Positions 5,693 to 6,007 of a stretch of 64,000 nt of DNA are shown piece by piece; within the stretch, counting starts at the first letter, position 1, and each line of letters begins with the position of its first letter. Under the pieces are notes generated by a model. The model made no database searches. It was not told the DNA's origin and saw only the letters and a list, made by a program, of their open reading frames with translations. Source of the DNA: Stegostoma tigrinum (lineage: Eukaryota); NCBI RefSeq assembly GCF_030684315.1, contig NC_081388.1:23419015-23483014 (forward strand). Direction: 5' to 3'. The position numbers and the translations under genes are program-made.

Positions 5693-6007
5693 AGTAGGTT
5701 TGCAGAGTGACAGAGGAGTTTGTGATTGACATTGTGGTGTTAGAGCCCAAGTCCACTTCAGCCAAGCAGGTGTACTCCTGTCCATCATCTGATAGACTTG
5801 CAGTGAAATTGAAGACATTTCTCAACCTGTTATCTTCATCCGGAAGACCTTGGTTTTCTGCAGAATTTCTCTGAACAATCTCACTCCCTCTCAACCATGT
5901 GAGAATGAGTTTGTTGTTTGGGTAGACTCTTGGTCCGATGCACTGCAGACTATATCTCCTGTTAACCTCCAGCACTTCAGGGAGTGATGTAATGTTTATC
6001 TCTCGAT
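5693..6007 (-). CDS. ICAM/VCAM-like gene A, Ig domain 2 exon
   Basis: 315 nt, phase 1-1, ttcacag acceptor, gtaagt donor; YSLQC..RVYP...WLRGSE...DDGQEYTCLAEVDL, ICAM D2-like. Confidence 0.93.

What the first reader, a model, noticed from the sequence alone, without database searches (positions are those of the whole stretch)
5693..6007. Ig domain 2 exon is homogenised between paralogues while domain 1 and introns are not
Seen: this exon and 55465-55779 differ at 2 of 315 nt, yet identity ends about 15 nt into the downstream intron and about 7 nt into the upstream intron. The D1 exons of the same two genes share only roughly a third of residues. Inference: exon-limited gene conversion or exon replacement over 50 kb keeps a common D2 scaffold under diversified ligand-binding D1 domains.
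Basis: partly seen in the sequence, partly recalled or inferred. Interest (0 to 1): 0.75.

Follow-up and report, generated by a model that had tools for sequence, protein, structure and literature searches.

The report
Shark ICAM genes share overwritten exon
Ancient, very different copies of a shark cell-adhesion (ICAM-like) gene carry an almost identical second Ig exon that groups by species rather than by gene copy, most likely because it is repeatedly copied between the genes by gene conversion, a known process not found described for this family.

Summary
Confirmed and wider than reported. Exons 5693-6007 and 55465-55779 (minus strand) differ at 2 of 315 nt. Their D1 and last Ig domains share 38% and 42% of residues, and their introns do not align. 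They belong to an ICAM-like cluster with 8 D2 copies in about 210 kb. Across sharks and rays D1 groups by paralogue and D2 by species or lineage; AU tests reject the reverse. Three synonymous changes, absent from a sister species and from a local pseudogene, are shared by the other 7 copies. That argues against plain conservation. Short-read contigs of two samples show unique flanks running into a deeper shared exon, which argues against misassembly. Best reading: recurrent non-allelic gene conversion. It is exon-limited for the short gene B; among the long genes it covers D2 to the last Ig domain and some introns. An adaptive 'common scaffold' is not shown, and the sawfish (a ray) copies are not homogenised. 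The pattern matches MHC class I alpha3 and protocadherin homogenisation. This scan found the same thing earlier in another genome (e1-7788876).

The parts
5693..6007 (-). Gene A, Ig domain 2 (D2) exon; homogenised
   Evidence: AG/GT bounds; best PDB matches ICAM-2 D2 E 2e-5, ICAM-5 D2 E 2e-4; maps to P0015
55465..55779 (-). Gene B, D2 exon; 313/315 identical to gene A D2
   Evidence: maps to P0018
55444..55821 (-). Core homogenised tract in gene B: about 40 nt of upstream intron (acceptor region), the exon, about 20 nt of downstream intron
   Evidence: 97-98% to copies C, E, G over 378-391 nt; alignment
35776..36138 (-). Truncated third D2 copy (35776-36060, 97%) with gene-A-like upstream flank (82% over 77 nt); no acceptor or donor at the usual places, no D1 found upstream
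17959..18028 (-). Gene A signal-peptide exon (GC donor)
   Evidence: tblastn of P0015; bounds
12655..12930 (-). Gene A D1 exon (ICAM_N, four Cys), class A
   Evidence: PF03921 over cut-off; best PDB matches ICAM-2, -3, -5 D1
4228..4521 (-). Gene A D3 exon; 99.7% identical to D3 of genes C, E, G
3251..3538 (-). Gene A D4 exon; 98.6-99.3% identical to C, E, G. The last Ig exon and TM exon lie left of the window
61347..61610 (-). Gene B D1 exon (ICAM_N), class B; its signal exon lies right of the window
50839..51117 (-). Gene B last Ig (I-set) exon; 42% aa to gene A's last domain, 86% to its Rhincodon counterpart
49751..49929 (-). Gene B transmembrane and cytoplasmic exon
26092..27252 (-). Recent partial duplicate of gene B's last Ig exon with flanks (96-99.8%), reading frame interrupted

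Best explanation
The two exons are the D2 exons of two ICAM-like paralogues older than the shark-ray split, and they are near-identical most likely because non-allelic gene conversion keeps copying D2 between the tandem genes. Shown: both ends of gene B (D1, last domain) track its orthologues, its D2 tracks the species, its introns are orthologous to those of a sister species, and new synonymous alleles are shared across copies. Inferred: D2 changes slowly enough under purifying selection (77% between species versus 59% for D1) to stay within the identity range that allows conversion, and conversion then resets it. D1 and the introns diverged past that range and escaped. Tracts stop where homology ends, about 40 nt upstream and 20 nt downstream, the splice-signal zones. 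D2 is the only slow-evolving exon that the short gene B shares with the long genes, so for B the tract is one exon; among the long genes tracts reach kilobases. Selection against conversion in D1 is plausible but untested.
For: In the D1 tree class B is one side of a branch (99); forcing it on D2 is rejected, p-AU 1.3e-7. Forcing this species' D1s together is rejected, p-AU 6e-68, while its D2s are already a group (97/92). D2 groups by species in Stegostoma, Scyliorhinus, Mustelus, Heterodontus and Pristiophorus (starred) and Heptranchias (97/73). The nearest neighbour is the same-species other class for D2 in 38 of 51 units and for D1 in 0 of 51. Rhincodon B-type P0020 and long-type P0054 are identical over the 67 D2 residues available; both differ from gene B at 5 residues. 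Organism B's contigs show B-locus introns at about 92% on both sides (30/379 and 34/424 differences) and the exon at 11/262 differences. At 3 synonymous sites 7 of 8 local copies share one letter while pseudogene F and organism B share the other. Intact copies differ at 0-1 synonymous codons of about 100, versus 13/29 (D1) and 13/38 (last domain) for A versus B.
Against: Not universal. Pristis D2s are rejected as a group (p-AU 0.023; B versus A 66%). Carcharodon and Cetorhinus D2s interleave (own paralogue 87-88%, orthologue 95%). Hemiscyllium and Chiloscyllium group only as a lineage. Other species were compared as predicted proteins, several of them multi-unit models that may be fused by annotation. 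Contigs drop rare variants, so they cannot show fine identity among organism B's copies. Gene B's two differences from A were not seen in the listed contigs of runs X2 and X4. No polymorphism data, no formal tract test, no long reads; gene A's flanks were not checked on reads. GC3 of D2 (0.47-0.49) is only slightly above D1 (0.32-0.44), a weak conversion signature.
Confidence: 0.87

Rival explanations
1. Double or repeated unequal crossovers, or a recent DNA-level copy of the exon, replaced B's D2 once, with no recurrent conversion.
For: The cluster shows recent rearrangements: a truncated D2 with an A-like flank, a 96-99.8% duplicate of B's last exon, and an inverted partial copy of gene E. 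Among the long genes, 3 kb at 98.6% (G versus A) could equally be segmental replacement.
Against: B's introns on both sides are orthologous to organism B's, so two exchanges within about 375 nt are needed. The same outcome recurs in at least 6 species. Several unrelated introns converge on the same -40/+20 edges.
Confidence: 0.08
2. Assembly or polishing collapsed similar exons, so that the identity is an artefact or is inflated.
For: No long reads were seen. B's two distinguishing letters are absent from the listed X2 and X4 contigs. Polishing can erase differences between copies that are already similar (general knowledge).
Against: In runs of two samples (X2, X4), unique-flank contigs match B with 0 differences and enter the exon, where deeper shared contigs take over (25-41 versus about 7; 56-82 versus 18-25). 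The same happens in organism B. Copies keep private variants, and pseudogene F is 11% apart. The pattern recurs in several separately annotated species.
Confidence: 0.03
3. Strong purifying selection alone, including on synonymous sites, keeps D2 unchanged.
For: D2 is the more conserved domain between species (77% versus 59%). Mammalian ICAM D2 is also the most similar domain between paralogues (over 64%, PMC3270525).
Against: Between species D2 does change: 11/262 nt, at least 4 synonymous of 9 listed, on about 56 synonymous sites. Paralogues share the species-specific states; selection alone predicts orthologue grouping, which is rejected.
Confidence: 0.02

Closest known systems
MHC class I alpha3 domain (exon 4) intra-species homogenisation, HLA-E/Qa1 versus class Ia (PMC1403747; passages read)
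   Same: One Ig-domain exon groups by species while the N-terminal recognition domain reveals old orthology; attributed to gene conversion.
   Different: Here the genes are ICAM-like, the neighbouring domains on both sides are only about 40% identical, the paralogues predate the shark-ray split, and identity reaches 99% nt with edges about 40 and 20 nt into the introns.
Clustered protocadherin regional (ectodomain-specific) gene conversion (PMC1852091, PMC3966226; passages read; Noonan 2004 seen only as cited there)
   Same: Tandem adhesion genes with diverse N-terminal domains and over 99% identical downstream regions. This matches the long genes A, C, E and G.
   Different: Protocadherin tracts lie inside one large variable exon; here the unit is a separate 315-nt exon between non-alignable introns, and the tails also differ between genes.
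Divergence peaks under conversion, as in the red/green opsins (Fawcett and Innan 2011, PMC3924837; passages read)
   Same: Conversion rate depends on divergence, concerted evolution ends when conversion is restricted, and selection can protect one region.
   Different: In opsins the introns are homogenised and an exon differs; for gene B the introns have escaped and one exon stays converted.
Mammalian ICAM-1/3/4/5 cluster (PMC3270525; passages read)
   Same: Tandem cluster, four-Cys D1, D1 divergent (26-29%) and D2 the most similar domain (60-64% or more).
   Different: No conversion is reported in the passages seen, and similarity is far lower. One-to-one orthology with the shark genes was not tested.

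Membership tests
ICAM family | N-terminal ICAM_N domain with four Cys | tested here: met
   PF03921 over the curated cut-off in 5 of 5 local proteins; D1 best PDB matches ICAM-2, -3, -5
ICAM family | ICAM-type second domain | tested here: met
   D2's best PDB matches are ICAM-2 and ICAM-5 D2, E 2e-5 to 6e-4. Pfam's ICAM1_3_5_D2 model hits shark D3 rather than D2
ICAM family | Type I membrane protein of tandem Ig domains | tested here: met
   Signal, Ig and hydrophobic TM/tail exons mapped for P0015-P0019
ICAM family | Integrin-binding Glu in D1 (ICAM-1 E34, ICAM-2 E37; residue identity recalled) | tested here: inconclusive
   A loose pattern finds a Glu 6-12 residues after the second Cys in 57 of 57 D1s, but phmmer places it up to two columns from the ICAM-2/3/5 Glu
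ICAM family | Synteny with the ICAM1/3/4/5 locus (TYK2 and CDC37 as neighbours in human; recalled) | tested here: met
   The only CDC37_N match and a JAK-family gene lie at C45:22.69 and 22.78 Mb, about 0.5-0.8 Mb from the cluster; the JAK paralogue was not typed
ICAM family | Binding to beta2 integrins | not testable with these tools
   needs a binding assay
Concerted evolution by non-allelic gene conversion | Paralogues closer than orthologues in the tract, reverse outside it | tested here: met
Concerted evolution by non-allelic gene conversion | Homogenisation includes synonymous sites that change between species | tested here: met
   3 synonymous alleles shared by 7 of 8 copies, absent from pseudogene F and organism B
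Concerted evolution by non-allelic gene conversion | Flanking DNA stays orthologous (no net duplication) | tested here: met
   B-locus introns about 92% to organism B on both sides; tested for gene B only
Concerted evolution by non-allelic gene conversion | Shared polymorphism between loci; non-reciprocal transfer | not testable with these tools
   needs phased population data
Concerted evolution by non-allelic gene conversion | Raised GC3 in converted region | tested here: inconclusive
   D2 0.47-0.49, D1 0.32-0.44; homogenised D4 and last domains of the long genes are 0.31-0.38

The most novel reading that the evidence does not exclude
The shared D2 exon works as a recombination hinge. Because it is the one near-identical stretch in otherwise ancient genes, crossovers inside it swap D1 heads onto different bodies and tails and make new receptors. 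Hints: a class-B D1 sits on a long-gene body in 4 predicted units from Carcharodon, Cetorhinus and Mustelus, and the window holds a relic with an A-like flank, D2 and, 8.5 kb further, a B-type last exon. Uniform D2 might also be selected for a species-specific partner.
Probability: 0.25. Interest if true: 0.7.

Novelty: new member of a known kind. Interest (0 to 1): 0.45.

Why it matters
It is an unusually clean and long-lived vertebrate case of single-exon concerted evolution, with a built-in control: a pseudogene that kept the old alleles. The tract edges can be read to within tens of bases, which makes the minimum homology for ectopic conversion testable. In practice, whole-protein trees and automatic names of shark ICAM/VCAM-like genes mislead, reads mis-map on D2, and orthology must be called from D1, the last domain and the tail. 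If D2 also serves as a crossover hinge, it would be a simple route to new head-and-tail combinations in leukocyte adhesion receptors.

Tried and rejected
No read check of gene A's flanks was obtained, so that side rests on the assembly and on its 98.6% match to gene G. No RNA holder was listed for the stretch; this says nothing on expression. My first D1 class pattern mislabelled one Mustelus unit; it was corrected. Class labels come from D1 motifs, so '51 of 51' for D1 is partly circular. The independent check is: 14 of 19 class-B D1 units are followed by a B-type last domain, versus 0 of 50 class A/C units. The AU-test groups were named after the trees had been seen and used 31 of 57 units with a quick model. 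Of 73 D2 units, 16 were dropped before the trees (7 duplicates, 9 with incomplete D1 or D2). The pattern for last domains caught only 3 B-type rows and was replaced. The idea that the 35776 copy is a clean A/B crossover product is not shown: no A-type D1 or longer A homology was found upstream, and its parts differ in age (82%, 97%, 96-99.8%). An excess of non-synonymous differences among D2 copies (for example 6 to 0, A versus E) was seen but not tested; the counts are small. Literature searches for ICAM plus shark, cartilaginous fish, gene conversion or duplication found no description of this. One search (Ig-domain exon homogenisation) returned nothing. The library lacks most subscription papers, and no supplements were read.

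Full report
Observation. On the minus strand, 5693-6007 and 55465-55779 are AG/GT-bounded 315-nt exons that differ at exon nt 41 (synonymous) and nt 155 (Asn/Lys). The exact match continues 18 nt into the downstream intron and 8 nt upstream; with a 7-nt gap in copy A, upstream homology reaches about 40 nt. Beyond that the introns of the two genes do not align, apart from 29-43 nt repeat-like bits. The D1 exons (12655-12930, 61347-61610) share 38% of residues and the last Ig domains 42%, with synonymous differences at 13 of 29 and 13 of 38 comparable codons, versus 1 of 101 in D2.

What the genes are. D2's best solved relatives are ICAM-2 and ICAM-5 D2. D1 matches Pfam ICAM_N over the cut-off in 5 of 5 local proteins and ICAM-2, -3 and -5 D1 in the PDB. 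Five proteins named ICAM-like from Stegostoma tigrinum (P0015-P0019) map exon by exon to this region. CDC37 and a JAK gene lie 0.5-0.8 Mb away, which fits the ICAM1/3/4/5 neighbourhood as I recall it. The genome holds 8 matches to the D2 exon, all within about 210 kb of C45. In 464 kb of assembled neighbourhood they are:
- gene B (short: D1, D2, last Ig, TM);
- a truncated copy at 35776;
- long genes A, C, E and G (D1, D2, D3, D4 and, except G, a last Ig; TM);
- an inverted partial copy D with no D1;
- pseudogene F (stops in D1, broken D2 splice sites).
Copies A, B, C, D, E and G differ by 2-13 nt; F differs by 34-40 nt.

The pattern is wider than reported. Among the long genes D3 is 99.7-100% identical, D4 98.6-100% and the last domain about 99%, while D1 is 41-68% identical in protein. 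G and A share 3.0 kb at 98.6%, including introns. Their tails differ. So the long genes have distinct heads and tails around a homogenised middle. For gene B the homogenised part is only D2 plus about 40 nt upstream and 20 nt downstream, and several unrelated introns converge on these same edges.

Cross-species test. One search returned 54 proteins, 53 named from sharks and rays and one unnamed. These gave 73 D2 units, of which 57 with complete D1 and D2 were kept. In the D1 tree the A and C classes are separated from class B (100/99), and class B spans sharks and rays. In the D2 tree, units group by species for Stegostoma (97/92), Scyliorhinus (100/95), Mustelus (100/94), Heterodontus (100/95), Pristiophorus (99/95) and Heptranchias (97/73). 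They group by lineage only for Carcharodon plus Cetorhinus (98/91) and Hemiscyllium plus Chiloscyllium (99/90), and not at all for Pristis. Mean identity for same species and different class is D1 44%, D2 93%; for different species and same class it is D1 59%, D2 77%. On 31 representatives, class B as a clade is rejected for D2 (p-AU 1.3e-7) and present for D1; Stegostoma as a clade is rejected for D1 (6e-68) and present for D2 (groups named). Because the classes were defined from D1 motifs, I checked them independently: 14 of 19 class-B heads are followed by a B-type last domain, versus 0 of 50 A/C heads. B's last domain is 86% identical to Rhincodon's, 47-74% to other species' and 43% to its own paralogue's. 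Gene B is therefore an old orthologue whose middle exon alone follows the species.

DNA-level test. Short-read contigs were laid on gene B. In two samples of organism A (X2, X4), unique contigs match both flanks with 0 differences and run up to or into the exon, where deeper shared contigs take over. Depth is no copy number, and X2's sample may be the assembled one, but the layout is that of a repeated exon between unique flanks. In organism B (X9, X14) the flanks are present at about 92% (30/379; 34/424 in X14) and the exon again collapses into a deeper contig with 11 differences in 262 nt. Nine of these are listed. Five change residues and match Rhincodon P0020 and P0054, which are B-type and long-type yet identical over the 67 D2 residues available. 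Four are synonymous. At three of the synonymous sites 7 of 8 local copies share one letter while pseudogene F and organism B share the other. The simplest reading is that neutral changes arose after the species split and spread through all copies still exchanging sequence, but not into F. Limits: contigs drop rare variants, B's two distinguishing letters were not seen in the listed X2 and X4 contigs, gene A's flanks were not checked on reads, and no long reads were available.

Mechanism. Recurrent non-allelic gene conversion is the best reading (0.87). Shown: the opposite tree signals, orthologous flanks around B's exon and shared synonymous alleles. Inferred: D2 evolves slowly enough to stay convertible, conversion resets it, and D1 and the introns diverged past the threshold. 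This follows the dependence on divergence reviewed in PMC3924837 (passages). The sawfish, where B and A D2 are 66% identical, looks like a lineage where exchange stopped; the two lamniforms look like partial or older exchange. That argues against a universal need for a common D2. A single replacement by double crossover (0.08), assembly collapse (0.03) and purifying selection alone (0.02) fit worse.

Comparison with what is known. The closest cases are the species-wise homogenisation of MHC class I exon 4 (PMC1403747, passages) and regional conversion in protocadherin clusters (PMC1852091 and PMC3966226, passages). In mammalian ICAMs D2 is also the most similar domain between paralogues, at 60-64% or more, with no conversion mentioned in the passages seen (PMC3270525). 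Six searches on ICAM evolution, sharks and conversion found no description; the library is incomplete. This scan reported the same phenomenon in another genome (e1-7788876). That note is not independent support; it also named MHC class I as the closest case before I searched for that paper.

Verdict. Real, and a new member of a known kind. Interest 0.45. The boldest reading not excluded is that D2 acts as a crossover hinge that re-pairs heads and bodies (4 predicted B-head/long-body units in 3 species; the broken copy at 35776). I put it at 0.25, because the models may be annotation fusions and the relic's parts differ in age.

Noticed in passing
window 35776-36138 and 26092-27252: Broken intermediate locus between genes B and A: truncated D2 with an A-like upstream flank, then a recent, interrupted duplicate of B's last Ig exon. 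It could be a crossover relic or two separate events.
   Followed up: partly
G000:C45 about 23,357,400-23,360,900 (L022-L023): Inverted partial duplicate of gene E (signal exon and D2, 98-99%) that lacks the D1 exon; orphan copies of 3' Ig exons lie next to it.
   Followed up: partly
G000:C45:23,299,323-23,300,600 (L008, L017): Pseudogene F: stops in D1, D2 acceptor TG and donor AT, first D2 Cys lost; it keeps the older D2 alleles.
   Followed up: yes
window 6003-6016 and 6043-6056: The 14 nt around gene A's D2 acceptor are duplicated 40 nt upstream, giving a second AG that would be out of frame.
   Followed up: no
window 17959: Gene A's signal exon ends in a GC donor.
   Followed up: no
window 19018-21568, 28147-30870, 34320-35720, 60398-61168: Long tandem arrays; 28147-30870 and 34320-35720 share a unit of about 15 nt, and the latter begins about 55 nt beyond the cut end of the truncated D2 copy.
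   Followed up: no
P0001-P0013: Many annotated shark proteins string several D1-D2 units together under names such as hemicentin-like or VCAM-1-like; they may be true repeats or fused gene models.
   Followed up: no
D2 exon nt 147-157 in copies A, B, C, F: Amino-acid differences among D2 copies cluster in one short patch, where gene C partly keeps the letters seen in F and organism B.
   Followed up: partly
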